From NCBI GenBank assembly GCA_030141605.1, contig JAQGDQ010000171.1, positions 248,001-312,000 on the forward strand: a stretch of 64,000 bases of DNA, in the 5' to 3' direction. Each line of letters begins with the position of its first letter. The stretch's first letter is position 1. This DNA comes from Tubiluchus corallicola (lineage: Eukaryota; Animalia; Priapulida). Of this stretch, positions 9,672 through 57,130 are shown piece after piece. A program made the position numbers and the translations under genes. The notes beneath the pieces were generated by a model, which searched no databases, was not told the DNA's origin, and saw nothing but the letters and a program-made list of their open reading frames with translations.

Positions 9672-12600
9672 ATGATAATTCGAGAATTTGCGGCAGCATT
9701 GTTCTGCTGCCTGGTAAGTATCTTTACCATACAGAATATTTAATTGCATTGACTAATCGAGTAACTTACTGACAGGCTGCCTGACTGACACTTTAATCAA
9801 CTTACAGAGCAACCGGCTAACTAACAAAAGAAAAAAGTTGTTGCAGCCTTATAATTTTCAAAGAAGAGCTATTTTATAGTCTGTCATTTTATTAAACGAC
9901 CATTCACCTCACTGGCCAACTGACCGACTAACTGACTGACACTGAGCACGCTATAACTATTTTATACTAATTTGAGTGAAATTGAAAAATAAACAAATAT
10001 TAATGTTGATCGAGTTGCTACAAAAAATTGTTTTCAAATCTAAGCACTAACGAGGCAAAATTTTCCAGGTTGCCAAAACGTCGGGATTCTCTTTTGGCTA
10101 CAGTTCAGGATACGGTGGTGGAGGCTACAGCGGAGCTGGGGGTTATGGTGGGGGAGGTAGTCATGGAGGACATAGTGGAGGGTATGGGGGAGGAGGATAT
10201 GGTGCAGGGGGTTATGGGCTGAGCTATTCAGGTGGATATGGGGGTTATTCTGGAGGGCACGGTGGGGGCTATGGAGGACATGGTGGGGGCCATGGGGGTC
10301 ACGGAGGAGGTCACGGAGGCCATGGAGGATATGGCTATCAGCCCTTGTATTACTATGGCTATCTTCATAAGCACACGACTACGACGCATGCACCGTATGT
10401 ATACTTCAGACGTCACACTGTTCCATACGAGGACCTGTACGAGTCAACGTACACCGACCATTACGTGTTTCACACCCCAAGTCCATGCTACGGATATGGG
10501 TGCAAAAAAGGTGACAGTTACGGGTACGGCGGTAGTGGCGGACATCAAGGCGACTCATACGGTTATGGATCCAGCGGTTATGGCGGTCATGGCCGAACTG
10601 GTTATGGTTCTGATGGGTACGGAGGCTACGGTTCGGACTATGGAGGTCATGGCGGGTATGGCAGGACAGATTATCTTGACGGTTACGGTGATACTGGGTA
10701 CAGCAGCGGAGGAAGCAGTTACGAACACAATTCTGTTAACAGAGGATATGGTCAGAACTCGTACGGCCAAAGCAGCGGATACGGCAAAGAATCTCATTCG
10801 TCTAACAGCTACGAATCAAACGAAATAACAGGTACCTAATTTGACCAAAGATTAAATGCACGACATTTTTTAAACAAACGACGCTAAAACTCTAGAGATT
10901 ATTTTGCATTTATCAGTTTACGAGAGTAATGTAGGAATAAGTACTATACTCGCAACCAACTGTGTGATGACCAGCCGTAAATATTTTAAGTTCAGTTAAC
11001 ATTGGCACAAGCATACCTAGTGCTGCTAAGGATCATAGCACGCAATAAACCTGTCACATTGCTGAGATCAAAGATCAAAGTTACAAATTTCAATGTCAGA
11101 GCTGTAATTTCTATAGCAAACAAAAGATGTGTCCTCAACGAGCTTGAAGGACAAATTAAAGGATCACAGCAAGGTACAAGGTTACTAAATTTCGTGTGTG
11201 TCGAAGACAGGTGATAAAAAATAAACTTATTTTTGGTAAAGGGACCGTTACGTGCTATACCCCGATTGGCCTTGTTTTAGCGATATATACAAAAAATACA
11301 CCGGAACTGTGGATTTTTCAGTCAACAGCCCAGAAAAAATTTGTAGATGTCAGATAGCGGTTATGTCAGAACTGGTTATGGTTCTGATTAGTAGGAAAGC
11401 TACGGCCGAATTGGCCACGCTAAAGAGACAGATTATAAATTTAGGGAAACTCTAACAACTAATAATTAGTTGTACACATTAACGTACAATGTGTCAACCA
11501 AAACTCTAAATGTTTTAGATATCAAAACAACATGCGATGGACATTATAAAACATTACGAATTGATCTGACTTTCAAAAGTGGTTTCTACGGTAAGATATT
11601 CGCGAAAGGCTACTACGGAGTGGAGAGATGCTCGGCCCAAGGTGATGGCTCTTATCATCTTAGTTTCACACTTCCTCTGGATGGATGTGGTACACAAGAA
11701 TCAATTGATGTTGATAGGGTAAGCATTTCACAAACATTTAGAATAAGTTAAATTACTAGATCAAAAATCGTGCGTTTTATACCTTTGTGTGTAATGATAA
11801 GTCACCCTTTTCGAATAAAATAATAGTTTTCGGTTATCTCATTTCATACTTACGAGTCTTCTTATGTTCTCTTTTTGTTACTTGAGCATTTAATGCGGGT
11901 ATAAAATGATTCATAATGTCATAGAGAAATACGCTCTCCGTTCGTTGAGCTTCAGTTTCAACGATTACTTGTCAGGAGTACAACGTTTGTTAGTTTGTTG
12001 TACGCTCTTATATACGTAGTGATCTTTATCCTTCAAAAGGCCAGATTTACCATTATGATGTATTTGCCATTAGTTGTTTCATAACTCATAGATTTCCTTC
12101 CAAAAGTCTCTTCAAGTCTTTTTTAAGTTCAACTTCACCAATAAGGCTTTTAAAAAAATTTCAGTCTTCTGGTTATGGTGGTTATAGTAGTGGATACCAG
12201 CATAAGTACACATACAAGAACACGTTAGTTGTAATGGAACACAGTGGATACGGATACGGTGTTCTTGAAGCAAAGGATCGAGCCTATTCTGTCTACTGTA
12301 CCATTGAGGACAAGAATCAGAACCAGTACCAGCAACCTACAACTCAAAGCTACGGGTATTGTATAATGCCTTAGTTTTCTACCGTGTACAGCTGTGCACA
12401 TGTTGCTCAATAACATTGAGACTATAAACAGTAGGAGCATCAATTTTATTAAACCAAACTTTACTCATTTTTATATTTGCCCTTCGGAGTGTAAATTGAA
12501 GAAAATTTTTACCTGCTTTGTGCGAAGTATTACAAATCTTCAAAGAGTAACACATTTAATTATTTTTTGTGTCTTTTAAGTCATTTAGATTGTGTAAAGA

Positions 12601-23088: not shown

Positions 23089-26000
23089 CTACAGTGATGA
23101 CTCATGATAACTTGCTACCTCATTTCCGTTTTCTGATTGGTTAACATTTCTATCTTCTTCTTCTTTTTCATCACATTTGTTTTCGTCTTTGCTTGGTCTT
23201 TTGCAGCAGGTGAAGCAAGGTATGAGACAAAGTAGCACTGCAGCAGACGTCAAAACAGCTCCAGCTACCACATATGACGTCACAAAGTCCTGGGTGAGGT
23301 CATATATCATGCCTTTAAATTCATAAAAATGGTAACCTCAAACGTTAAAATAAGATCATTATGAGTAGATGAGATTGCTGTCTAAAAAATGTGTTTCGGT
23401 TCAATTTAAATATGTTAAATTACTTTGCAAAAACTATTCAGTTGTAGATCTTTCATTAAAATATATGTTTCAAGCCTGATTTTAAGTAAATTTATAACAT
23501 TATTCAGTTGTTTAAAAGTTATGTTTCAATTCCACTTAAATATGTAAAATTACCTTGAAAATGCTATCATTAAATTAAATTTTATTAACTTTCATTAAAT
23601 TATCTGTCTCAAACCTGATTTTAAGTGGAATTAGTAACATTATTCATTCAATCACTTTTTAACAACGTGTAAGTGCAATGTTAAGGTTCAATGATTTTCA
23701 ATAAAAATTCATCTTATTTCATATCATATCATGCATACATGGTAATCTACGTGCTATACTGCAGCTAGATAGCCATTAAGATACCATGACGCATGATATA
23801 CCTGCTACAGGTGGTCCAATCATCATCGACACACCACGACATAAGCATAACAGACCAAAAGCATTTGTTAGCTTAAGCAATCCAATTGCCTCCACTAATA
23901 TTATAGACGTCAGGCAAATAAATGCAGCTGAAAGGCAACAAAATATATAGACACTGCATGCAAGAGTTTGCTTAACTCCAGCTCGTCAGACACCACAAGC
24001 AGACATAGACTGCATCATAGAGGATAGCTTAAATGATTCCAGTCAGAGCCAAAGCACATACTCTATGAACAGGGCACAGCTTTACCTGCCAAGGGAGGTC
24101 CTACCATAGATGTAGCACCTCGAAACAGACAGAGTAGTCCAAAGGCGTTGGTTAATTTCTCCAGACCCATAAGATTAACAAGAATCACAGACGTCAAGCA
24201 AATGAAGGCAGCTGAAATGTTATTAGTTTTTATGGCATATTTTTGCACCTGCTTCTTTTAAATTATAATATTTAGCACGGCCGGCTGTAGGTAGTTTGAC
24301 GCCCCGGGCATAAAGGTTTTTAGCGCCCCCTACCCCTCCTTCGCACGGTCCCTTTCTCCACCGTCTCAAGCATACCACAGAATTGATTTTTTTATATAAT
24401 ATTATAATAAAATATAACAGTACCTGTGTGCTACGCTTACACATGCATTACAGTTCACTAATTAAGTGTCTGTACCTTTCTGCAGCTGGTCTGAATTGAA
24501 TTTGAAATTGAATTTATCACCCCAATGTACGCTCGGGTCTTCGGCAGCAAGCACACTTCTGCAAATTCTGCTACTCTTGGCTACATTTTCCCTCAACTTT
24601 TTCATCAGAAAAATTTTCAAACCCCAATTCCTTTTTTCACGTATCTATCCATTTCACTAGTTTCATCATCTTCACAACTCTGATCTGGTTGTATCTTCAT
24701 CAGAGATATTTTTAAGATAATTTATGTTTTATTTAATTAAAGTGCTGTGCACTTAAGCAGCAATTGCACATACATTATGTTATTACGTATTCTAAACTTT
24801 AAAATTAAAGAGTTACTTCCAGAATTTGGCGTTCCCACAAATTTGGTGCCCTAAGCAACTCGTAAGCAGTTTGTTTATGATAGAACCGGTACTGATCTTT
24901 AGTAACGTAAGCACAGCCCGTTACTGAAATGACTTTATTTCAGGAGTTTTCACTCCAAGGCCATCAGCTGCAGGTCAAAATGCACAGAGAAATGGTGGCA
25001 TCTTTATAGCTCACATACAATCACTTTGAGATTTAAGGGAACTATATTCACTTTTTTCAGTTAAACATACGTAAATAATCAACCAAACTGTTTTGCTATA
25101 TTTTAATCCTTAATTGAGTCTCTTATCGGTTATCTCGTATATTGTTGACTACTTAAAGGGAAGACAAAGTTATTAAGTACGTCAACAAAAAAAAATTCAC
25201 ACAAAGTTATATTACTTAGCAGTACGCTTACCTGTTTGAAAGACTTACGTAATTAGAAAAGAAAATTCTTAACAATGTAAAATATTCACGCCACCTGGTA
25301 AAACGGCACTGCATTGTCATCCCGTTGTGCACAAAGTTGTTCACCAAAAAACATATTATTGATCTTACTGACAATATAAAGCAATTTAAACTTTTTCATA
25401 ATTTGCGAAAAGTGTGCTACGAATGCTCTGACTATTTTTTCAGACTTCGTACAATGTTCGAAACGACTCACTCTCAAAATCCACACAACGAGTCACGGGA
25501 GTCTAAATTTACAAGTTCTAGACACCCGTTGCTGCCCACGTAAGCTCTGTGCGCAATAAAACAGCATGTAAGTGATATAAAATTTCAAGACGAATAAGCC
25601 TTTTCACACTTCCAGCGATTGATGATGATCATGAAAAGGTCAAAGGTTAAGTGTACCAGACAACGCATTTGTGTACACTTGGGCCAGTTTTAACAGCTAG
25701 CTAGAACCTTATTTAGTTCATTTTTATTATTCCAAAGCAAGATCTTGATAAGTAAATCACACTATGCACAGATTAATGTATAATTAAGCAAAGTTCACGT
25801 AAAACAACTGAAGTTACGGCAGACAGCATTGCTTTACCCACATGTCACGTTACGATTGTAGTTAAGACGCGTTGCTGTGGTATACTTAACCTTTGACATA
25901 CGGGAACTACGCGTGCGCACAATGAAACTGTGAAAATGCTTATTTTAAGTGTTATTTGTGAAGATTGAATTCTTGTGCTTTAGCGTTACTCAGTGTAAAT

Positions 26001-28882
26001 ACTCACCAACAGATGATCCAAACACTGCACAATAGACTGCCAATGACAGGTAAGACGTGTACAGAGGTAAAAACAATGTGGACACGCCACTTATTAGCAA
26101 ACTAATATTGTTCACATAAAGAGCATTAACTCCAGGTCTATCACAGATCCAACCGACAATGACACGGCTTACAGTGTTTGTGATTCCAATGATGGACAGC
26201 AAGTAAGCAGCATCAGTTGCAGGAATACCAAGCTCAATAGCCCTTGAGTTGGTGTACATGAAGGGTATGTAAAATCCTATAAAAGCCAGAATGTTGGCGA
26301 TGCAAATTAATAAAAACACCGGATCTTTTAGCAAGGACAAGTCTAACATTTCCTTAAAGACGCTTCTCATTTCAGGTTCACAGCAGCGTGCCATTAAGCC
26401 ACTTTCACTCAAATCAATAACCGTTCCTTCTTCATCAGCCACACCTGGAATAGCCGTAATGCTAGTAATATATTCCATTTCACTTTTTGCTGCCTTGTAC
26501 TCTGGTAAGTTCATTATGCTACCACTAAAAAATATATCTTTCCTGTACATTGGACGTCTGTACTCTTCTTTTATGTCTTTGCCTGCTAGAGGTTTGTAGC
26601 CATTTGGTCGTAGTAGCTGTGAACCTCTAATATGAACGGTGTGCTCACTCTTCACGCGTTGGAGTAATTTATTCTGAGGTAGCTGCAATGCTTCTTTGTC
26701 TATGGCTGTTGCACTGGTACTCATCCTTCTGACTTCTGTATAGTTATCTGGCACGTCACTTTTGCTGTCCAGTTCGTGGTCACTCGAAATTACTATGTCT
26801 GGAATTGCAGGTCGCTCCCGAGCCACAGTTGACTGATATCCTGAGTCTTCTGTTTCGCGAGAAGAATCCGAAGATTTGCACAGCTCCCCTTCAGTTAACT
26901 CATTACCTGGAGTATTATTACAAAGAAAGGTAGCTCTGTTGTCGTCGTGTATAGTAAATGTTCTTACTCTTTCCATTTTCACTTCGTGCATTCTTTGCAA
27001 TAGTGGTTTTTCTGTCACCTTGATTTTCTTCGCTTTCAACGGTCTCATCAGGGCACCGCATACCATCCCGTTCATCACCAAGCCAGCCACGATCAATGTA
27101 GCACCCTTCCAGTCATACGTGGTCAGTAGAAATTTAGAGAAAGGTGCAAAAACAAACGTCCCTATTCCAGATCCACAGACAGCTAAACCTGTAGCGAATG
27201 CTCTTTTTTCCTCAAAATAATACCCGACACTCACGATTGCAGGCAGGTACATAAATCCAAACGATATTCCTAAAAAGACCAAACGAAATTAAATATCTAT
27301 ATTATTTAGTTATAATAATCTACCTCGTAAACGACACGAGTCCTCAGGTGGATTTTTAATCGTTTAAAAGAGGTTTTCTGACCTAAATTACTGTTAATAA
27401 AGCTTATAATCTGATAATAGGAAACAGTATATAGATATAGATTTAGATTTACTTCTCACAAAAAGCGATGCACATTGAATGATACGAAACAAAAATTATA
27501 AGATAGCATCGCAAAAAACAAATTGCTTACACTATAATGCTTCAATGTGTGTTTAAAGAAAATCTTGTAAGCACAATAATGATAGTGAGATAGTTATTTT
27601 GTAATTTCATATATTTTATGCTTCTAATCTTGCAGTTAAAATGTTAGAAACTCAGTAAAACGAAATTAACCTGCCATAACCCCATACGTCAAAATTAAAA
27701 CAGTGACATTCGGCGAAAAGATGCTAAGAATGAATGAGATTCCTGCCATGACGCTGCCAAATATTGTCACTGGTCGACATCCAAATCTGTTCACCAAGGC
27801 ACTGACTACAGGACCTGTGAAGAACCAAAAGTAGTCTGTAGAAGTAACAGCAGCACGTTTGTAGGAACAATTCCCAAGTTTTTGCATTTGCACAATAAGC
27901 ATTTACTGAATTTTGCATAGTTTGATGAAAAACTGCTCTCACTAAGCAGCGATTATGTTGTATTTGATAATTTTTGTAGGCCTCTACTCCCAACACAATC
28001 GTTTTTCATGCAAAATTAATACGAAATGCATTTGCTCACCTTAACCAAAAAAAAATGAAAAAAGCTTTCAGTAATTACAGTGTTTGCACTGTAACAATGT
28101 ACAGTATCAATTGTGTGAAATATGCTAATGCAGAAAATTTCAACTATCCAGACTCAACACTCTGATATATTATGGCCTCAAAGTCATCTCTTATTTTTAA
28201 GGAGAAATTCCAGTTAAAAGATGAAACGACCTTAATTTCTCTTTGGCTGATCGGTTTGCTTTTCCTGGAACTCAGCACAGCAGAAGGTTCTCTTGGGCTG
28301 TAGCAAGCAGGCGATCAATAAAATAGTGTGTACGATCACGCAAGTGTAAACCAGACTAAGCTACTCACTAGGCTAAGTTGGAGTGCCGGAAAACGGTGTG
28401 TTTTTCTTAATTTTATCCAATTAAATCAATTATAAATGTCAAAAGAAATAGCCGAGATTCTCCTTCATAGAACAGTACCTAATTTGTAATCATTTAGTTA
28501 TGTATGTGTTCATACAGTACCAGAAAAGTAATAGGTCTTATATATTTTAAATGGCGTGGTCCTGTGACAAACTTGTGAAACCAGTAAACATTGAAAACCT
28601 GTCAAACGTACCTGCAGTAAGATAACAGCCAGCAAGCAGTGATCCGACCATTGACGTTTTAGCAGCGCTTTCATTGAAGTACTCCTTAAATTCGACCAGC
28701 CAAACGCCATAGCAGTAGGTGATACCATCAACGAGAAAATTTAATATAAAACTTGCGAAGACAATCATCCAACCCCAGCTGCCATCTGGAGGCTGAGGAA
28801 TAAGATACTCCGGATCGAGTCCCTCCAATTCCGGATCAAAGTCGTCATCGCGTGCTGGTCTGTACTCGTCGCGCTGGCGCAT
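23089..28882 (-). CDS. SLC16 / monocarboxylate-transporter family MFS protein (MCT12/14-like invertebrate type, ~675 aa with one of the two alternative exons)
   Basis: Exons 28612-28882, 27671-27814, 26007-27269, [24086-24211 or 23802-23927], 23089-23312; all phase-1 GT-AG junctions. SLC16 motifs [49 protein letters not shown], large central loop with [10 protein letters not shown], and GPPLAG-MIYD. An acceptor at 28903-28904 indicates a further upstream exon. Confidence 0.93.
23400..23650. repeat. Degenerate ~120-bp tandem duplication in the last SLC16 intron
   Basis: TTAAATATGT.AAATTAC ... CTTTCATTAAA ... CCTGATTTTAAGT ... TAACATTATTCA occurs twice (~23400-23508 and ~23526-23649). Confidence 0.7.
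23802..23927 (-). CDS. Duplicated alternative exon (copy B) of the SLC16 gene, encoding the TM10-TM11 region
   Basis: 126 nt, flanked by tttcag| and |gtatat, same phase as exon 24086-24211. Translates to [42 protein letters not shown], 31/42 aa identical to copy A. Not in the ORF track. Confidence 0.85.
24276..24894. mobile_element. hAT-type MITE in an SLC16 intron
   Basis: Ends CACGGCCGG...CCGGTACTG with GCGCCC-type subterminal motifs; 8-bp TSD ATATTTAG (24268-24275) / ATCTTTAG (24895-24902). Confidence 0.7.
25593..25944. mobile_element. MITE family A, copy 2 (in an SLC16 intron)
   Basis: Colinear with 7743-8112 over its full length, same orientation, same TIRs with a few mismatches. Confidence 0.85.
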
Positions 28883-30010
28883 CCTGGTGGCGACAAACCT
28901 ACCTAAAAATAATTGGGAAATTAACTAAATTATTGCAAGCGTGCTGACTAACAAGGGGTGAAATTTAAAATTCCTATTAATTTATAAAAATTTTATATCA
29001 AAGCTTCCATCTGGATATAGAACCTTTGCGGAAACGCTATATGTTTTGGCATATTTATGGTGCGACAATGGCAGTCCAAACTAAAGACATTATTGCTGAA
29101 ACAAGATGCAAAACAAGAGTACAATATCACCTGGAAACACTCCATATCAATATTCATTAAGAAATGAAAAAATGGCCCTTGCGTTAACACGTAATAATGA
29201 CTAGCGATTTTAAAACTGAAACACGGCAAAATTGAAGGTAAGATAGGTCTAGGCAGTAATCGCGTAATCGATAGTCCTAATGCTCTATTTGTACCCTTAA
29301 CCGTTATGCTTAATGCAATGCTGAAACATAACTACTGCCCGCAGAGTTTATGTAATACTGTCATTAACCCAACTATCAAAAATCCCCAAATGGCAAACCG
29401 AGAAGTAAAATTATAATGCATTTCACCCCTATCCATAATCCCTTGTGTGAGAGTACGTGGAAATAGTTCATGTCTTTCTCTGTTTTGAAGAGGAGACGGC
29501 GTTCCATAGCTATTTCAAGTCAATTTTGACTGACATTTCTCGTATAGTTTACCCACGGGTTAATTGTTACCAATACGGTTACCCTAGTTATTATGATGCA
29601 TTGGCCTACAATAATATTTTAGTGGAAATGTGTCTAAATACAATAGTTGCATATAACTCAGCTATATAGATCATCTTTAACTCAATGTAGCATTACGTCA
29701 AAAATATTAAAACGAATCATAATTTGGACAAGTTCGCCTGTTCGACGTTCGTGCTCGGGTTCAGCTATAGGCTAGTGCTTATGCAGCAATTCGATGCCCT
29801 GCTTTGAATTCGATTAACTGCAGGTGTGTAGATTATACTTTGTAACTGTTTATCAAAACTTTTCAAAAACGTAGCTAACTTTCCTGACAGAAACTAAAAT
29901 GGCAATATGATCACAATTCCTGATGAACTATTATCAGAGTTTATGGTGAAGTTTTTAAGAGGTTATAACAACGATTTGAAGGCAATACCTAAAAAATTCG
30001 CACCTCCTTC

Positions 30011-46923: not shown

Positions 46924-47300
46924 GTCGGCTTTTTCGCAAAACTTAATTAATGATATTAGTATTATAATTTACGCCATATTATTCATGGTCATAATTGCAA
47001 CATAATTATTAATATCGGGATAAACGAGTATTTCAAAGTTTTAGAAGCAAGCTTGGCCTGATTTACCTAGGTCCATTTCTTTTCTGGCATATTTAGTTCC
47101 ATAGATCGTAATCGATGGCTTTACGGTCCATTGATTACGGATCATGAAAACTGTGTTTGTAAAAACTGGATCGTAATTTGACCGTAATCCTGCTATAATT
47201 TCGCAGCCGACGGTTAAAACAGGAATCTGGAAAGAACTTGGAAGCATAGTTATCACGTCACTGGGTGTAATTTTCGCTCTTTTCGTTTTGTGTAGAGATA

Positions 47301-47668
47301 GGGTACAGTCTGCAGTCTTAAGTTTAGACTGGGCAAAGTTGGAAAGGGTACAGTCTGTAGTCTTAAGTTTAGACTGGGTACAGACGGAAAAGGTACAGTC
47401 TGCAGTCTTAACTTTAGACTGGGTACAGACGGAAAAGGTACAGTCTGCAGTCTTCAGATGGAATAGGTACATCTGCAGTCGTAAATTTGGACTGGGCACA
47501 GATGGAAAGTGTACAGTCTGTAGTCTTAAGTTTAGACTGGGTACAGACGGAAAAGGTACAGTCTGCAGTCTTAAGTTTAATCTGGATACAGATGGAAAGT
47601 GTACAGTCTACAGTCCTAAGTTTAGACAGGGTACCAATGGAAAAGGTACAGTTTGAAGTCTTAAGTTT
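47301..47668. repeat. 45-bp minisatellite (~8 units) overlapping the DEG/ENaC stop codon
   Basis: Unit GGTACAGTCTGCAGTCTTAAGTTTAGACTGGGTACAGACGGAAAA, seen as 15-aa repeats in the spurious ORFs. Confidence 0.9.
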
Positions 47669-49737
47669 CCTGTAACGGTGGTGAACGCAAGAACTCCATT
47701 TCTGAGGCGCCATATTTGTCATTATTTTTCTCTCCTTGATTCATCACTTTCTTGTTTCTGGCCCGCCGTAATCCCTGCAGCAAAAGCATAACTACATCTG
47801 CGAGAAATTCAATAATCTCGTAAATTGCCAAAACAGACATGCCAATATACAGTCCCAGCAGGCCACCAATGTCACCTGCCAGATCTGCTTCCTTGTAGGT
47901 GATTTCCTCATGGACTTCCTCTACCATTGATGTCTCAAACATGACATGGAGCCAAGCCAGTTCGTTTACGCCATCCACAAGTGACTTTAGAGAATAGTTG
48001 TTTTGTTTTTCATCCGTCCATGCACTGTAGCGCATCAAGTACCCGGTTATATTTGTGGTATTGTGGTACTCTCTGACAAAATTTTTCCATTTCCTTGTTC
48101 GATTATGGTCTATCGTGTGACTGGACTCCCACGAAGTATGATACCTAAAAGCATTTTACAGAATAGATTTATAAGTTAATTTGTGAGTTAATTTGTGAGG
48201 TTCAATTTAACGGGATTTGCAAAAATTGCTAATGTCGACGTTAAATTAATATCAATGGTTTTTTTTCATGTAAGTACATGTATCATGCAATGTAGCAGTA
48301 TCAATTTTTGCAGTCAATTAAATTTAAAGCCTGTATTTTCAAGTAGTTCAGAGCCTGATTATACATTCTATATATAGAAGAAGTCTGACTACCTTATTTA
48401 GCTCGCAATTTTATGTTATAATACAGAATATGAAGGAAGTACATAAAATAAATAGATAGCTGAACGAAGAAATAAATAAACACCTAAAATAACAGATAAG
48501 CAAATAAACAAACAAGCAATTCCAATGCGGAATAACTTCGCGTTATGGTGCGTCTTGAATGACCAAACGTGAATGCAACTAAACCTTTACCTAGTTTGAT
48601 TACATGGTGCAGGACAGTTACACTCATCTTCTTCAATTTCAATCATCATAAAACAATCATCATGATCCGATCCAAGTAGAGTTTCACACATTGGAGGTTG
48701 ATCATCGATTGTCCAACCAGCCTCTTGTAACAGTTTGTCTGTCAGTGGGATGCTGTTGCTGCTGCAGTTACATTTCTGAATCAACTTTTTTTGTTCGCAA
48801 GTCTCCCTGCAAGTCTCAGTCCCGTATTTGGTGCCAAACGTTTCCTTAAACACATCTCTAAGTTGGCCTTTGTTCGCTTCTTCTTCTTCTATACAATGAT
48901 TTTTCGCACGCACTTTGTACACGTCTGTTCGCTGTATTTTTGCAGTGTTCAAGGTTCCAGCACGCACGAAGAATGGCTTGACACCAACATAACTGTAGCC
49001 AGGTGGAGTAATGATGACATTGAATCCTGGCTGAGGAGTATTTAATGGCATGTATTCTTCCAGGCTTGCATTCAATAAAAAAGTAAAACCGATCTTTGCC
49101 ATGGAGCGGTTCACTCTCATTCCCGCCCGTCGTGCCCCATCTGGAGTCCTTCTCGAAGGATTGAAGGTAAAACAGTTACCCTTATCTAGCTGTATGTTAG
49201 TCGTCTCAAAATGTTCAGCTAATTCACAACCTCTTAATTCTGATTTCTGTTGAGGCAACTTACACAACAATATAGTATCTTCTAACTGGTGACCGATCCT
49301 TAATCGCTGAGTTTGGTTCAATTTAGCTGCAAATTCTGAATTGAAGGCTTCATAGTTAACTAATCCCAAGCGGTAAAATCGTCAGATACATTATAAAATT
49401 CCGGCATAAATTTTTTGTACTCGCTAAAGCGCATAGAATTTTTGTTGCAAATGGTCACAGATGGTGCAGCAATTGTTTGGCTACTTAGTCGAAATCTAGC
49501 AGCAGTCTTTACAGGACGTGAGAGATACTTTTTTAACTGTATTCCACTCTGAACGCAGAACAATGATGTAGCCGCTCCTATGAGAGCAATCCAAATGCAT
49601 TTTCTCACCAAACTTTTTGAACGTTTTATATTACCTATGCCATGAGTAGCTGTATTGTCTGCTAGTGTAGCTGCTAATGTCTTGATGGACGATTCTTCTC
49701 CACTTTCAATCTCAGCATTTTCGTAATTTTCTTCCAT
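47661..49737 (-). pseudogene. DEG/ENaC (amiloride-sensitive sodium channel family) gene with one frameshift; pseudogene, null allele or assembly indel
   Basis: Exon 48591-49737 plus exon 47661-48144 (GT-AG, phase 2). Motifs: pre-TM1 NTATHG, TM1 KCIWIALI, PSVTICNKN, GHQLEDTILLC, GNCFTFN, Cys-rich thumb ending CNCPAPC, and TM2 LAGDIGGLLGLYIGMSVLAIYEIIE. The frame breaks between ORF 49360-49737 and ORF 48587-49369; adding one base restores a 543-aa protein. Confidence 0.8.
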
Positions 49738-52700
49738 ACCTGTCCAAAAGAAGCTTTTACAAAAGACGACAGAAGAGATTTACGTCTTGTAACTTACCAC
49801 AAAATTTAAATGCAAAAGGGTCCAACCGTTATTTTTTGACAAAATAAACCGAATTAGCACTTTGCGTTTCTTGTAAATTGCCTTCTAAGTTCATTCCTCT
49901 AAAGGAATCTTGGATCGGCCTTCCTGGTTAACTGACCTTCCAAGTTAACTGCAAATTTTCGGACATGAACTTTTATTAAAATTTCCTGTAAAAGGTTGTT
50001 GCGGCCATGGCGTTCTCTTCTTTACAAGACAACAGTGTGTTGAAACTTTAAAATCCCTAAATTTCCAAACCACTTTTTGTGACAGCACTATCTTTACTAT
50101 TCTGCACTCTCTGCAGAAACATCAACACTAGAAGACAATGAAGATGAACGTTCGAATGATTACAGCCGGATTTGCTGAAGCTGTCGACTTTTGTAGTTTG
50201 TATACGCATCATTACGATGACATAAAATTTCCCACGAGACCATACTTTTAATCTGATAAATTTGTCTCTGATCATTAGGCAAAATTGCTTTATAAATAAA
50301 TAAGCATGTAAAAGAATGAAAATTGCCATGCACCAATGTATTGCATTAAGCTAAATGGATTCCATTGGAACCATTTTTCGTTGTTGGACATCGCTAATTA
50401 CAGTGGTAGGTATACAGCATTTCCCAATGGCATCAATATCGTATTGATTTGCATGCATCTGAACTACGAAGCCCATTGATGATCAGCAGATAAATTTGAA
50501 GATTATATACTGCGTTCAAATCTCTAGTCAAAGCAAAAGACACAATAGTGACAAGTTGATTTATCTGGTTTAATAGCTTATATCGCAACACACACTTATT
50601 GCAAAAAAATTACAAAATTACAAAATACAATTACAATTTACTGTGGTTCAATGAATCATTTGCATAAAATATAATGAGCATTCCTTTCCTAAATATCTAC
50701 AAATTGCTATTGATAATGAATTCCAAAGCTCTATTGTTTAAATTTTGTATTTTATGGATGACAAAAAAGAGGAACCTTGTAAGTATAAACTTGCAAATGC
50801 TGACTGCGTGACGCGCGCGCTTTTTAACAAGTTACTTAAAATGACTGTTATCCGGACAATCTCTAAACACAGTTTATGTTTGTGGCATGAAAGGTCATGC
50901 ATTTGGATGATCGTTAACACAAGCAGGATAAATGAGAACAATGATAGATCCTGCATGAACCATGCTAGATTGGTCAGGTGACTCAGGTTTAGGAAGAAGA
51001 CCTTTATGTACCAGTAGTTTTATTTCCACATCATTTTATGTTGATAGTGGTGATTAATCTTTCATTTTAAAACACATGTTCACATAAATGGGCACATTGA
51101 AGGTATCTCTGCACAGTCTCTGTATAAACTTCACCTGTTCTTGATTTATCAGAAAGTTACCATGCTGCCACAATGGGTGATCGAACAAAAAAACGATCGA
51201 AACCGGAAACCTGGCCAAGTTCCTCCTGATGTCACAGACTGTAATGTTGTTTAGTGTGGTTAACTGGTGTGTGTTCCCTTGATAACGCTTTTCACGCAGT
51301 GTATCCTAGCAGGATCCTCTTCAAGAGCTAAAGGGTTTTCATTTGGCGAAGAAGAATTCGACGTATTTTGCTGATTCGGGATATTTTAATCTGAATGAGT
51401 GAACGAAAAGGCAGGATATATTCTATAAGGTTAATTTGTTTGTTAGTGAAATTCAGACATAGTAACAGCCTTCTTTAAACGCAGTTTTATTTCTTATAAG
51501 TTCCTCATTAACTTTTTGTTGATTAGATGCAGATGCACTTACCACACAAACGCATTAAACACAAAAAAAGAAAAACATCCTGATGAAATTTACACATTCT
51601 AATTTAAAAACGTGTTCTAAATAAGTAGACTCTGGTTCATACTTTTAAAAACTATTAGTATTACTTACCATATTCTGCTATGCAATATTAAGTTATGCTA
51701 CTTTAGATTTCTTTAGAATCCGAAGAAAAATAGTTAAAAATAGATAAATTTGCACAGAACTGGGCGCATTTAGCTAACGCCTCTCAGGTATAGAACCAAA
51801 TGGGATTATTCTCTATCTGTGTACTTACACTACAGGTCAATAGCCTGTCTGAAAAATTAGAGTAACACGGTTCGGAAGTAGCCTAATTTTACCCTGATTT
51901 TTATTAGTATAAATTTTAATAAAGGTGTGGCCATGGTATTGAGATTTGCACCTGTCGGTAAACTTTAGATCGCTGATCATAAAAATACTTTAAAAACTAA
52001 AAACAAGGCAGAAAACCTTTGATAAGTGAACAAAAACACGTACGTGACACTAAAATGCACAAATGTATTTACAATTTTTACAACAGTACAATATGCTATA
52101 CCCAGCAGTTACAGTTAAATTAATGCCTGCGTAGTGAAGCAGAAATTGGCTCTGAAAAAAAAATTAAGGATGACTGCTGTATCACACAACCACAACTATA
52201 TATGAAACAAAATCAAGAAAAAACGCCAAAATAGTGAAAGCAGGACATTCGTTTCCTTGTAACATCACCTGAAGGAGATGTTCATTAAAACCTTTAACAT
52301 TAAAGTTTAAAGCTATAATTTGTTTCTGCACCTATATTTTTGATTTGCCCTGACACATTTGCCTCCAACAGGGTATGCTTGGCCATCACTGATTGTGTGT
52401 TTGTTATGATTTTCAATATTATTAAAGGAAATAAAGATATGATTTTTTTACTTACTTACATTAATTTTCAGTTTTAGGCTATCACAAAAGTTCAAAGACA
52501 CGCACTTGTAACTTAGTAATGTTTTATGCGTATTGTGCTTGATTAGTATAGTAAAAATATATGAGCATTTACTTATCCAGGATAAGAAAGAAAACAGTTG
52601 ACTAGCATTATTGCACGTTTACTTTCTTAGGTGACAGACCTACTGCTAATGTTGAATTGTTGAGCCAGAATTGGAATTTAGCCAATTACCATCGACAATA

Positions 52701-53001: not shown

Positions 53002-54672
53002 TCAGACAATCTCATCTATATTGCCTGCCATGATGTCCTGATAAACATCAATGAACATATAATCAGATAATGATTCGTAGCCACTAACAGCTTCCAGCAT
53101 TTGCTGTAACTGTTGGCGCAGTTGCTGAAAACTTGGTCTGTCATCGGGATTTTCACGCCAACAAACTTCAATCAGTTCATACACCTCTTCTGAGCACCCC
53201 GGAGGACACTCCATACGGTATCCATTTCTGATTGCTTCAATGACCTCAACAGCTGTTTTGTGTTCCGGGTAGGGCGTGACCCCAAGAGTTACGATCTCCC
53301 AGAAGAGTACCCCAAATGACCAGACATCTGATTCTATGGAATATTTGTTAAACTGCAAAGATTCGGGTGCCATCCAACGAACTGGCAAACGCTTTTGTAA
53401 CCTCTTCACATTAGACCGGTACTTGACAACGTCGTCTTCTCTTCCAAATTTACTAATCTTACACTTAAGGTCCGCAGAGACAAGAATACTCCTTGCTGCC
53501 AAATCGCGACACAGGCATTTATGCAGGGCTAGATGTTCAAGCCCTGACACAATGTCGGAAGCAAATGACACTGCCATTCTAACAGTCAAGTGAGCAAGAT
53601 TTGAATACTGGTCCGTATTCCCTGCTTCTTTCAAAAGAAAAGATTTTAAATCTCCGTTCTCCATGTAATCTTTAATCACTACTGTACCTTTTTCTGCATC
53701 ATTTATTTTTGTGATAAAACCTAATAAATTTTCATGTGCAGGAATGTCTTTTAAGATCTCCAATTCCTTTTCAAGATACGAAGTAATAAAATGATTGCGC
53801 TTTTCCTTTATTGTGTATTTAGCTGTGACTATTTGCTGCTCTCTAATTCTTTCTGGCTCAGTATTGTGCAAGATAGCTTTGTACACGTGATGATACGTGC
53901 CTTCTCCAAGTTTTTCTAGGTAACTTATTTTGTTTTTGTTCACGCATTCATCCGGTCGAGGAGGTAGTGCAGGAACATCGGATACCCGTGGCGGTAGTGG
54001 TGTAACATAAGGAAGGTCGTACACAACTTCTGTTCTCTGTTCTTGGTTGATGGCTACCACACCAGCCATTCTTCCAGGTTCAGTAGCTGATGCAGGCGTG
54101 ATTGTCACTTTGTTGTAGTCTGGTGTTCCGCAGCATACTAACCTACAACATAATGCAGCTGATACAATTGAGGCAATAAGTTCCAGTATACCCAAAATAG
54201 GATATATTATGTGAACACGGCGTGCAATGTTTTCTTCCCAGCAATCTGTTTCGTAACAGCTGGAATGTAATGCTATGATAGAACCTCCAACTATCATTAT
54301 GCAACTTGTTATTGCAGAAAGGATGCACAGTACCATGAAACTGATCCAGATGGGAAGTACGGGCTTTTTCTTTCCTATACATCCCACGATTCCTGTTACT
54401 GTGAACATGATCCCTGCCCATATGCCAATTAGGGCACCATTATAAGAAACCACTATAGAAAGTACAATAACTTCCAGAAGAAGGGCAATTGAACCAAGAA
54501 CCAATTGGACTACTGCTGCTGCAAATGCCACTTTCTTGGTTGTTATATTTCCTGCTGTACGTCTCTCTTGCTCTTGCTGCTGTGTGAATGTCATATTTTG
54601 TACAGACACTTGTTCTGGTACATAATTCAGCGTGTTGCCTATTTTTGCTGGAACCATCGCCATAGCTGGCAT
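53002..54672 (-). CDS. MS4A/CD20-like tetraspan fused to a tyrosine-kinase-fold pseudokinase (556 aa, single coding exon)
   Basis: aa ~46-181: four hydrophobic segments with MS4A signatures ([25 protein letters not shown], extracellular C-x4-[16 protein letters not shown]). aa ~249-527: TK fold ([65 protein letters not shown]). The ORF is uninterrupted. Confidence 0.9.
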
Positions 54673-57130
54673 GTAATTTCAACAAACTGAATTTCCTCCT
54701 AGATTCTAAACATAAAACTTTGTGAAGAGTGAATATCGAGTGACACTGCAACAAAACAAGAAAAATATCATTTATCTAATAACAAACCGGTTCATTTTCT
54801 CTACTGCCAGAATTTTCGGCCAGACGCATGTGCTATGTACGTACTTCACACTCGTACCCTTAAGCTTCCGTAAAGTGACAGTTTAGCAGCTTTAGCTTCG
54901 TCTTTCAAGTAAACGTTTTTCATATTAAAATAAGCCATAGCGAACCCTTAAATGGGCGCAGTACAGTTTTTAGTTTTTAAGAAAGACACGTATTGCCCAT
55001 AATTGATCATTACTTTCTAAACCAATTAAAATAAAAGACGCAACTTTATCTATCCTAGTCGACATGGAGTCCTGTATTTCATCTTATCACAGAGCAATAT
55101 CGCGTCATTTGGTAACACCAATAACTGCGCATATTAGTTGCAGATACTTTTAAAATTAAAAACTCATTTTTGTGCATTATGACATAAACATTTATCACGT
55201 TGTCACCCAATCACTAGTAGATTAAACTTACAGCAACGCACTTTCCTTGTAGTACACATTCGTGTCCGCCAGTTCTACCTATTATATTTCGCAGAACATA
55301 CGTCCAAGCATTACCGTACGAACGATCGCAGACTCGTCATGTGTTTAGTTATCTCGCTATGGTTCACACAATGCCGGCTTTTCTTACGCTTAAGTTGCTA
55401 CTTCTTGGAAAATTCCACTTCGGACTCAGTCTAGCGTGTAGAACATAAATAACTGCTGGCACAGATGTATTAGTTGGCGCAGCTGCCCTAAGGCACACGT
55501 TTCTGAGGACGTATCTGCACTGTGCCACGGTGCCTACAACCGTATAATTACATGATTTTTTCGATATTTTGTGAAGCTCACAGTCTCACTTATGTATGTT
55601 ACAATGCATTATAGTAACACGGAACATTTGCGAACGTATTAATTTTAAGCTGGTATAACGAAGTATCTCATTTAGGCCACCAACTCACATATAATCTAAT
55701 CTGCCTCAGTCTCGCCAAGTGCTAAGGCGCTAAGGCATAATTTCATTAAAGCTGTAACTGACAGAAGTGTAAAATTGATGATTGTTGAATATCGAAAAGC
55801 GCTGCTTAATATGCTTGGCATACCATATAACTCGCATTGTACAATGACGATAACGATTGCTGAAACTTCCTCCTTTGAATTTTTAATACCTAAGAGAAGT
55901 GTAAATCGGTCAAGAAGTACTGTCTTAAAAACACTGTCACTTTTAAACATGAATTCTACTTGTACAACCCTAAGAGTGAATAAGATATTTATTGTACAAA
56001 ATATTTCCAATTTTAATAACACTGTTTCTAATCATAATATATTTGCTTATGAGCTGTACTGGCTTACTGAAGGGGAAAACCACCTACCTGGCTTCTTGTA
56101 TGATGAAATTCGTCAGATTTTGTATCATATGATAACTAACTAATGTAAATATTCTTGTAAATTATTACTAACAAATATTGATGAATTGTAATATGTAATA
56201 AGTGCGAAATAAATCTTATACATATAATAAATAAAAAAAATGAATTGTTAATGTGTGCCTGATCACATCTTCATACTAACTATAGGGCATTTCTACTCTA
56301 CAGTACGACTGCTCGACGATATTACTTCAGAAATCGAGAGGTACAAAGGGTTGTAGACCACATCTGTGGTTGTAGACTTTTTTGCTCAGCAGAATAAAGC
56401 TGCCGTGCTTTTTGAAAGAAACTGTAACTCTCAACAATTGCAGTTACAAGTCGTGTCGTATTTACTTGTTATTTTATTATTATTTATTAGGCACAAAAGT
56501 ATACATTAAGATTAGTAGACAATAAGATTGTATAACTACGAGTCATACGAAGGTTACAGCCATACGACTGTGTGGCCATAGATGACGCAAGGAACTAAAT
56601 TTTGGAACAGGTCACTGCCTGTTAATCTATACACGTACCCCATAGACAAGAAACCAGTAGTAGCAATTCAAAATGTTTCCTATAGTCAGAGTAATACTCA
56701 TTAATGAAAGTACGAGTACATCAATTTTAAATTCTGAACAGCAGATACAGAGATTCTGTTTATTTTACCAACTGGGGCTCTTTTCTCGTATGTATTGTAA
56801 TGATTTCTTTTTCAGCGCCAAATTTTCAGCTTCAAAGATGGTTTTCCTACACTTAAGAAGGGACCATTTCAACCTTTGTAGTTTTCAATACAAAATTGGA
56901 CTCGGGCACTTCAGTACCAGCGCTATTAAATTAATGATGTACATTTTAAACATCGTTGAAGAGCAGTAGCTAACATTTTACACACTGATTTGACGTGAAC
57001 AAAAAAGCAAAAATACTAATTAATGGGTTCAGTAGACACATTTAATAAATAAATTCTGTTAACAAATTTAAGTCACTTTAAGTCACTCATTAGGACAAAA
57101 TGATTTGCTCAGTTAAAGTTTTGTAATATC

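What the first reader, a model, noticed from the sequence alone, without database searches (positions are those of the whole stretch)
53443..53910. Targeted loss of metal-binding catalytic residues (HRD to CRD, catalytic-loop N to S, DFG to KFG) in an otherwise well-preserved TK fold
Seen: Gly loop GEGTYHH lacks the third Gly; beta3 Lys (K285) and alphaC Glu (E303) are kept; the catalytic loop reads C388-R-D-L-A-A-R-S395 instead of HRDLAARN; DFG is K408-F-G; the substrate-binding C-lobe ([19 protein letters not shown]...RPSF) is near canonical. Established: the catalytic-loop Asn and DFG Asp chelate Mg2+, and their loss defines pseudokinases. Inference: both metal ligands are lost together and a Lys sits where Mg2+ would bind, suggesting a selected scaffold or cation-independent nucleotide binder rather than random decay.
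Basis: partly seen in the sequence, partly recalled or inferred. Interest (0 to 1): 0.7.

Follow-up and report, generated by a model that had tools for sequence, protein, structure and literature searches.

The report
Four-pass membrane protein with dead kinase
This animal gene joins a predicted CD20-like four-pass membrane domain to a tyrosine-kinase domain that lacks both magnesium-binding residues, a design the searches found elsewhere only in two unstudied genes of the marine worm Priapulus, and it likely acts as a membrane-anchored signalling scaffold rather than an enzyme.

Summary
The motif changes are real. That domain's best fold match is the IgE-receptor chain inferred to be FcεRIβ/MS4A2. 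Two Priapulus caudatus proteins (33-37% identical) share the architecture, the catalytic-loop Asn-to-Ser change and loss of the DFG Asp, so the pseudokinase state is old and selected. A related copy in the same species keeps CRDLAARS and KFG under purifying selection (9 silent, 4 replacement differences). The Lys is not family-wide: Priapulus reads NFG. The fold is not evenly preserved: the ATP-binding N-lobe is unusually diverged, the β3 Lys register is ambiguous, and the related copy appears to lack the αC Glu. A PxLPxR motif, a cysteine cluster and a YxN site are kept in all three full-length proteins. Best reading: a catalytically dead scaffold subunit anchored by a tetraspan domain. Metal-free ATP binding through Lys408, as in EphB6 (RLG, Ser for Asn), is possible but secondary. 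Ten literature searches found no description of the architecture. There is no RNA evidence.

The parts
53002..54672 (-). Single-exon ORF, 556 aa: four-pass membrane domain + linker + tyrosine pseudokinase
   Evidence: aligns over 99% of its length to Priapulus XP_014662088.1 at 33% identity
54133..54531 (-). CD20-like four-helix membrane domain (about aa 48-180)
   Evidence: four hydrophobic segments; Pfam CD20 21.4-23.5 bits, below the 27.9 cut-off; model of four helices, pLDDT 75.8; best fold matches are IgE-receptor chains
54127..54150 (-). Cysteine cluster CCRLVCCG after the fourth helix; likely palmitoylation site (inferred)
   Evidence: CCxxxCCG in 3 of 3 full-length members
54007..54021 (-). 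Linker tyrosine motif YDLPY (Y218, Y222)
   Evidence: P-Y conserved in 3 of 3; linker 53947-54110 stays alignable in related copies
53956..53973 (-). PALPPR, class II SH3-ligand-like motif (consensus recalled)
   Evidence: PxLPxR in 3 of 3 members; PxxPxR in 0 of 68 canonical kinases in the same zone
53107..53925 (-). Tyrosine pseudokinase domain (about aa 250-522)
   Evidence: Pfam PF07714 E 3.6e-68; model pLDDT 87.8; FGFR kinases are the top fold matches
53890..53907 (-). Degenerate Gly loop GEGTYH (third Gly to His)
   Evidence: Priapulus CEGSTS and SQGRTG
53815..53829 (-). β3 strand VTAKY; register of the conserved Lys ambiguous (K285 or Y286)
53599..53607 (-). Kinase-insert YxN (Y356), Grb2-SH2-like site (consensus recalled)
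   Evidence: 3 of 3 members plus P0003; also in 45 of 74 canonical relatives
53488..53511 (-). Catalytic loop CRDLAARS: His to Cys, Asn to Ser, catalytic Asp and both Arg kept
53443..53451 (-). KFG in place of DFG
   Evidence: NFG in both Priapulus proteins
53401..53439 (-). Basic activation segment, predicted helical, without the canonical activation-loop Tyr
   Evidence: helix at aa 412-424 in the model; column 421 is Tyr in 73 of 74 canonical kinases and in 0 of 4 (window, P0002, P0124, P0003)
53359..53388 (-). P+1 loop / APE region [10 protein letters not shown], most conserved part of the domain
   Evidence: 74% identity to each Priapulus protein over aa 428-465

Best explanation
The gene encodes a protein with four membrane-spanning segments fused to a tyrosine-kinase domain that lacks both Mg2+ ligands, and it likely works as a catalytically dead, membrane-anchored scaffold subunit of a receptor complex. 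SHOWN: the architecture; the same architecture and loss of both ligands in two Priapulus proteins; one origin for the three kinase domains; purifying selection on the altered motifs; conservation concentrated in the C-lobe and linker; erosion of the ATP-binding N-lobe. PREDICTED: an FcεRIβ/CD20-like helical bundle, with both termini cytosolic by analogy. INFERRED mechanism: (1) the tetraspan domain, probably palmitoylated at CCxxxCC, places the protein beside a partner receptor, as FcεRIβ does; (2) an active kinase phosphorylates it in trans on linker Y222 or insert Y356; (3) SH3/SH2 adaptors dock on PxLPxR and pYxN; (4) the conserved C-lobe surface binds a kinase or substrate. Lys408 is a later change from Asn in this lineage and is not needed for the family's function.
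For: Architecture and motif loss in 3 of 3 full-length members. The three kinase domains form one group: 100/97 in the full tree, and 98 after dropping the motif columns. Related copy: 9 silent and 4 replacement differences over 30 codons, dN/dS about 0.08, binomial p 2e-4, motifs unchanged. N-lobe identity to Priapulus is 0.23-0.25, against mean 0.436 and 1st percentile 0.289 in 597 canonical pairs of equal C-lobe identity. PxLPxR in 3 of 3, against 0 of 68 controls. Fold: 8k7t_B Z 17.8, rmsd 2.7, 142 aligned; 8yvu_B E 2.6e-4. Human receptor pseudokinases signal through docking and allostery (PMC13259870, passages).
Against: No RNA holder, protein or assay data exist here. Only three full-length sequences from two species were found. 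The catalytic Asp and both catalytic-loop Arg are kept in all three, which a pure scaffold would not need unless they are structural. YxN is also in 45 of 74 active relatives, so its retention is weak evidence. The control pairs are not independent, and N-lobe erosion is seen on the window's branch only: the two Priapulus proteins are normal to each other (N 0.60, C 0.69). No partner is identified. The window's membrane domain scores below Pfam's CD20 cut-off.
Confidence: 0.58

Rival explanations
1. Cation-independent nucleotide switch: Lys408 contacts ATP phosphates in place of Mg2+, as Arg813 does in EphB6, and nucleotide binding controls the conformation. This can coexist with scaffolding.
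For: EphB6 carries the same pair of changes (HRSxxxxS, RLG; PMC13259870 Table 2). It binds ATP at KD 94 uM and is destabilised by Mg2+ (PMC8454701), and R813D impairs binding (PMC7586955). STRADα uses Arg/His for the cation (PMC4718504). K408 is unchanged in the related copy of X1/X2.
Against: Both Priapulus proteins and P0003 have Asn. EphB6 keeps an intact Gly loop; this protein does not. The β3 register is ambiguous, and on the K285 register Thr replaces the adenine-packing Ala. The gatekeeper is Lys334. The related copy cannot be aligned across Gly loop-β3 (53813-53947), and one X3 contig reads Lys at αC Glu303.
Confidence: 0.2
2. The tetraspan domain is itself the sensor (a small-molecule receptor or channel-like unit), and the pseudokinase is its built-in output domain.
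For: Direct fusion in one reading frame. The second extracellular loop varies strongly in length and sequence between members. Several related copies are present in this species, and the fourth-helix region is diverged in one of them (joint 54110-54289).
Against: The closest folds are accessory subunits (IgE-receptor chain, sarcospan, uroplakin). No ligand pocket, expression site or ligand was tested.
Confidence: 0.14
3. Atypical but active kinase that uses the retained catalytic Asp390 with Lys408 in place of metal.
For: HRD Asp and Arg, the catalytic-loop Arg and the P+1 loop are kept in 3 of 3. Weak cation-independent autophosphorylation is reported for TRIB2/3 (PMC4718504).
Against: Both cation ligands and the activation-loop Tyr are lost in all members, the β3 Lys is Arg in P0124, and the Gly loops are degenerate.
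Confidence: 0.06
4. Assembly artefact or a decaying retrocopy of an active kinase.
For: The ORF is intronless and no RNA run holds it.
Against: The 556-codon frame is open. Run contigs match with 0 differences. The same fusion and motif loss occur in Priapulus. dN/dS is about 0.08 against the related copy.
Confidence: 0.02

Closest known systems
Priapulus caudatus XP_014662088.1 (P0002) and XP_014667023.1 (P0124), RefSeq predictions named 'Ret-like'
   Same: Four hydrophobic segments, CCxxxCCG, PxLPxR, YxN, xRDLxxRS and loss of the DFG Asp; 33-37% identity; one kinase clade.
   Different: They read NFG, not KFG; His/Asn rather than Cys before RD; P0124 has Arg at the β3 Lys; gatekeeper Thr rather than Lys. 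No paper on them was found.
EphB6 (human receptor tyrosine pseudokinase)
   Same: Ser for the catalytic-loop Asn and a basic residue for the DFG Asp.
   Different: Eph family, with ectodomain, single helix and SAM domain; lacks the catalytic Asp and β3 Lys; keeps the Gly loop. The likeness is convergent.
FcεRIβ / MS4A2 (8k7t_B, 8yvu_B; chain identity inferred from size and fold) and sarcospan (8yt8_S)
   Same: Four-helix bundle: Z 17.8, 16.3 and 16.4; Foldseek E 2.6e-4 for 8yvu_B.
   Different: No kinase domain; 13-21% identity. PMC2826416 concluded that invertebrates lack true MS4A genes.
FGFR/RET/Tie/Cad96Ca-type receptor tyrosine kinases
   Same: Source family of the kinase domain: best sequence and fold matches, 36-39% identity.
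   Different: Single-pass with ectodomain, active, canonical HRD..N/DFG. The tree does not place the clade inside any one of them with strong support; no RET row was in the tree.
P0003 (unnamed Logan protein, Ig domains + one helix + kinase with HRDLAARS / NFG)
   Same: Same Asn-to-Ser and Asp-to-Asn changes; sister to the four-pass clade at 100/97.
   Different: Single-pass Ig receptor with intact Gly loop. The sister position loses strong support once the motif columns are removed.

Membership tests
Protein tyrosine pseudokinase (sequence definition, PMC4718504) | Tyrosine-kinase domain fold | tested here: met
   PF07714 E 3.6e-68; model pLDDT 87.8, FGFR matches with TM 0.77-0.79 by query length
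Protein tyrosine pseudokinase (sequence definition, PMC4718504) | Lacks at least one of β3 Lys, HRD Asp, DFG Asp | tested here: met
   DFG Asp is Lys; catalytic-loop Asn is Ser; HRD Asp kept
Protein tyrosine pseudokinase (sequence definition, PMC4718504) | No phosphotransfer activity | not testable with these tools
   needs an assay
EphB6/STRADα-type cation-independent ATP binders (functional class) | Basic residue at or beside the DFG Asp and neutral residue for the catalytic-loop Asn | tested here: met
   K408 and S395 in this gene and one related copy; not in Priapulus, which has NFG
EphB6/STRADα-type cation-independent ATP binders (functional class) | Intact Gly-rich loop (as in EphB6) | tested here: not met
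   GEGTYH; only the second Gly is shared by the three members
EphB6/STRADα-type cation-independent ATP binders (functional class) | β3 Lys in register and an open adenine pocket | tested here: inconclusive
EphB6/STRADα-type cation-independent ATP binders (functional class) | ATP binding without cation | not testable with these tools
   needs thermal shift or ITC
Canonical receptor tyrosine kinase architecture / RET | Ligand-binding ectodomain and a single membrane helix | tested here: not met
   four hydrophobic segments and no ectodomain family in Pfam
CD20-like family (Pfam PF04103) | Score above the curated cut-off 27.9 | tested here: not met
   window 21.4 and 23.5 bits; P0002 passes at 48.6, P0124 27.7
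CD20-like family (Pfam PF04103) | Four-helix bundle closest to MS4A/sarcospan structures | tested here: met
   ranks 1-3 and 5 of 48161 chains are IgE-receptor or dystrophin-complex chains; the top four Foldseek rows are IgE-receptor chains
Vertebrate MS4A gene family | Orthology with MS4A genes (tree, intron pattern) | not tested
   no MS4A sequences were in hand; PMC2826416 argues invertebrate look-alikes are not MS4A

The most novel reading that the evidence does not exclude
A small family of four-pass receptor pseudokinases, in which a CD20-like bundle is itself the sensor and signals straight to a fused tyrosine-kinase fold that switches shape. In this lineage the switch would use metal-free ATP held by Lys408. 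This would be a receptor design outside the single-pass rule for receptor tyrosine kinases, built by swapping an Ig ectodomain for a tetraspan after catalysis was lost.
Probability: 0.15. Interest if true: 0.8.

Novelty: new variant of a known kind. Interest (0 to 1): 0.52.

Why it matters
Receptor tyrosine kinases and pseudokinases are single-pass proteins with an ectodomain (established knowledge; PMC13259870 for the eight human pseudokinases). A kinase fold carried by a four-pass CD20-like domain is an architecture I found described nowhere in ten searches, although the Pfam pair is precomputed for XP_014662088.1. It fuses into one chain two things that vertebrates keep apart: a tetraspan accessory subunit and a kinase-fold signalling domain. 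It also gives a natural pair for one biochemical question, namely whether a basic residue at the DFG Asp restores metal-free ATP binding: KFG here against NFG in Priapulus, on the same Ser background as EphB6. The limits are a narrow known distribution and no functional data.

Tried and rejected
No whole genome was held, so copy number, synteny and taxon were not established. tblastn finds one copy in the window. The search restricted to residues 40-250 found nothing at E<=10, not even P0002, so it is uninformative. The word-based searches scored only 7996 candidates and both missed P0124, so they are incomplete. The profile search of 1.84 billion representatives listed only the best 150 of 95236 hits; among them only P0124 had the four-helix N-terminus, and more distant fusions below 211 bits would be missed. 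No RNA holder listed. The ESM Atlas did not complete. The VIA second look for the kinase model was not obtained. The model's coordinates cannot be read, so the K408 position was not measured. No complex prediction was sent, as no partner is known. The order 'pseudokinase first, tetraspan fusion second' rests on P0003 being sister; this held at 100/97 but not after dropping motif columns, so it stays a hypothesis. KFG could not be verified in the X3 and X5 related copies: 1 of 14 and 2 of 11 differences were unlisted. A recalled paper on adaptor docking to Drosophila Stitcher was not held, so that link was dropped. Searches for the architecture in print gave no description. Most subscription papers and all supplements were unseen, and kinome catalogues there could list it. 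Earlier findings had no match by sequence or place.

Full report
1. The observation. The finding lies inside one open frame on the minus strand, 54678-53002 stop to stop, 556 aa from the Met at 54672. Contigs from runs X1 and X2 cover 53385-53535 with 0 differences. They are one sample and may be the source of this DNA, so they are not independent and are not raw reads.

2. What the gene is. Pfam finds a tyrosine-kinase domain (E 3.6e-68) and a weak CD20-like match at the N-terminus (21.4 bits; 23.5 for the domain alone; cut-off 27.9). Four hydrophobic segments begin near residues 57, 81, 110 and 158. A model from three sequences gives four long helices at pLDDT 75.8. Against 48161 solved chains the best matches are 8k7t_B (Z 17.8, rmsd 2.7, 142 aligned), 8yt8_S (16.4), 8yvu_F (16.3) and uroplakin (16.1); CD20 scores 12.3. 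The tool warns that Z under about 13 is common for helical bundles. Foldseek's only two hits at E<=0.001 are IgE-receptor chains. That these chains are the β subunit (MS4A2) and sarcospan is my inference from entry, size and fold. The kinase half models at pLDDT 87.8 and matches FGFR kinases best. The coding region has no intron. An acceptor-like site ends at 54746, upstream of the start, which would fit an intron in the 5' UTR; this is untested.

3. Relatives. Of 122 hits, one covers the whole protein: Priapulus caudatus XP_014662088.1 (P0002; 33%, 99% coverage; CD20 domain 48.6 bits). A profile search of 1.84 billion representatives added XP_014667023.1 (P0124), also from P. caudatus. It was the only one of the 150 listed hits with the four-helix N-terminus. 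A third search with all three added nothing, but it is incomplete (it missed P0124). The organism of the window was not determined; an animal related to priapulids is the simplest guess.

4. Are the substitutions fixed? Catalytic loop and DFG read [11 protein letters not shown] (window), NRDLSARS/NFG (P0002) and HRDLSTRS/NFG (P0124). So Asn-to-Ser and loss of the DFG Asp are in 3 of 3, the catalytic Asp is kept in 3 of 3, and the Lys is in 1 of 3. Within the window's species, runs X1 and X2 hold a related copy. Over 53435-53524 all 13 differences in the X2 contig are accounted for: 9 silent and 4 replacement, none changing CRDLAARS or KFG, with silent changes inside R389, A392, A393, S395 and G410. 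dN/dS is about 0.08 and the binomial p is 2e-4, on 30 codons only. A partial list over 53525-53673 gives 14 silent and 6 changed codons. dS near 0.77 favours a paralogue over an allele, but that is not proven. Three other contigs overlap the linker in X2.

5. History. The three kinase domains form one group in an 81-row tree (100/97), and still do when Gly-loop, β3, αC-Glu, catalytic-loop and activation-segment columns are dropped (98). Their sister in the full tree is P0003, an unnamed Ig-domain single-pass protein with HRDLAARS/NFG (100/97). That support disappears without the motif columns. The order 'metal ligands lost in a single-pass ancestor, tetraspan acquired later' is therefore a hypothesis. 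Asn as the earlier state at 408 is the parsimonious reading only if P0003 is the outgroup; without it the direction between Asn and Lys is open.

6. Against 'otherwise well preserved' and against conserved ATP binding. Window-Priapulus identity is 0.50-0.56 in the C-lobe but 0.23-0.25 in the N-lobe. In 597 pairs of canonical kinases with C-lobe identity 0.50-0.58, the N-lobe mean is 0.436, the 1st percentile 0.289 and the minimum 0.23. The pairs are not independent, and the two Priapulus proteins look normal to each other (0.60/0.69). Only the second Gly of the Gly loop is shared by the three. The β3 Lys is Arg in P0124. In the window its register is ambiguous: BLAST, phmmer and a profile of 73 canonical kinases choose K285 with a gap or insertion; MAFFT chooses Y286, which fits the spacing of 17 seen in 65 of 70. 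The gatekeeper is Lys334. The related copy does not align at 80% across 53813-53947 (Gly loop to β3), and one X3 contig reads Lys at αC Glu303 (loose end read by eye, one contig). The canonical activation-loop Tyr (73 of 74) is absent in all three and in P0003, and the segment is predicted as a basic helix.

7. For a scaffold. Aa 428-465 (P+1 loop to αF) is 74% identical to each Priapulus protein, although this part is conserved in most kinases. CCxxxCCG after helix 4, PxLPxR before the kinase and YxN in the insert are in 3 of 3. PxxPxR occurs in 0 of 68 canonical kinases in the same zone. YxN occurs in 45 of 74, so it is inherited. The linker 53947-54110 stays alignable in related copies while its flanks do not. 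That PxxPxR binds SH3 domains, pYxN binds Grb2 SH2, and FcεRIβ acts as an accessory amplifier is recalled knowledge, not tested here.

8. It has precedent. EphB6 reads HRSxxxxS and RLG (PMC13259870, Table 2 passage), binds ATP at 94 uM and is destabilised by Mg2+ (PMC8454701, passages). R813D impairs that binding and its Gly loop is intact (PMC7586955, passages). STRADα uses Arg and His in place of the cation (PMC4718504, passages). Here the Lys is limited to one lineage and sits in an eroded pocket, so I give metal-free ATP binding about 0.2.

9. Literature. Ten searches were run. Six aimed at the architecture and none of their listings describes it; I saw titles and abstract starts only. I read passages, not whole texts, of PMC2826416, PMC8454701, PMC13259870, PMC4718504, PMC7586955 and PMC6982143, and no supplements. 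PMC2826416 concludes that invertebrates lack true MS4A genes, so 'CD20-like fold' is the claim, not MS4A membership. Earlier AI notes of this scan report CD20-like domains fused to a pyrin domain in sharks and to a ZU5-UPA-death module in a sea urchin. They are unchecked, but suggest that this membrane domain is repeatedly joined to non-catalytic signalling modules.

10. Verdict. Observation confirmed; interpretation partly supported. This is a conserved tyrosine pseudokinase whose unusual feature is its four-pass CD20-like anchor. It is a new variant of a known kind, already present as misnamed gene models in one other species. Interest 0.52.

Noticed in passing
window 47661-49779 (minus strand): A DEG/ENaC (amiloride-sensitive channel) gene with few introns, matched by Pfam ASC in three pieces. 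The first two pieces overlap in different frames near 49360-49381 with no intron between them, so it carries a frameshift, either real or an assembly error.
   Followed up: partly
window 25990-28924 (minus strand): Exons of what looks like a monocarboxylate-transporter-type (MFS) gene; family name recalled, not scanned.
   Followed up: no
window 10051-10839 (plus strand): A Gly/Tyr/His-rich open frame of 262 codons, resembling a structural or cuticular protein, with a possible further piece near 11994-12374.
   Followed up: no
protein P0003: Unnamed 897-aa Ig-domain single-pass receptor with HRDLAARS/NFG, another probable receptor pseudokinase.
   Followed up: partly
proteins P0122-P0131: Unnamed proteins with many tandem degenerate tyrosine-kinase domains (P0122 has ten matched stretches in 2911 aa, and none of the nine read has canonical motifs).
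   Followed up: no
window 53671-53673 and 53764-53766: Gatekeeper Lys334 is unusual. In the related copy it changes to Val while αC Glu303 appears as Lys, a single possible case of compensation.
   Followed up: partly
window 47041-47656: A tandem repeat of about 33 bases just downstream of the channel gene, open in several frames; the window also holds many microsatellites.
   Followed up: no
window 54713: A short out-of-frame upstream ATG between the acceptor-like site (54746) and the start codon.
   Followed up: no
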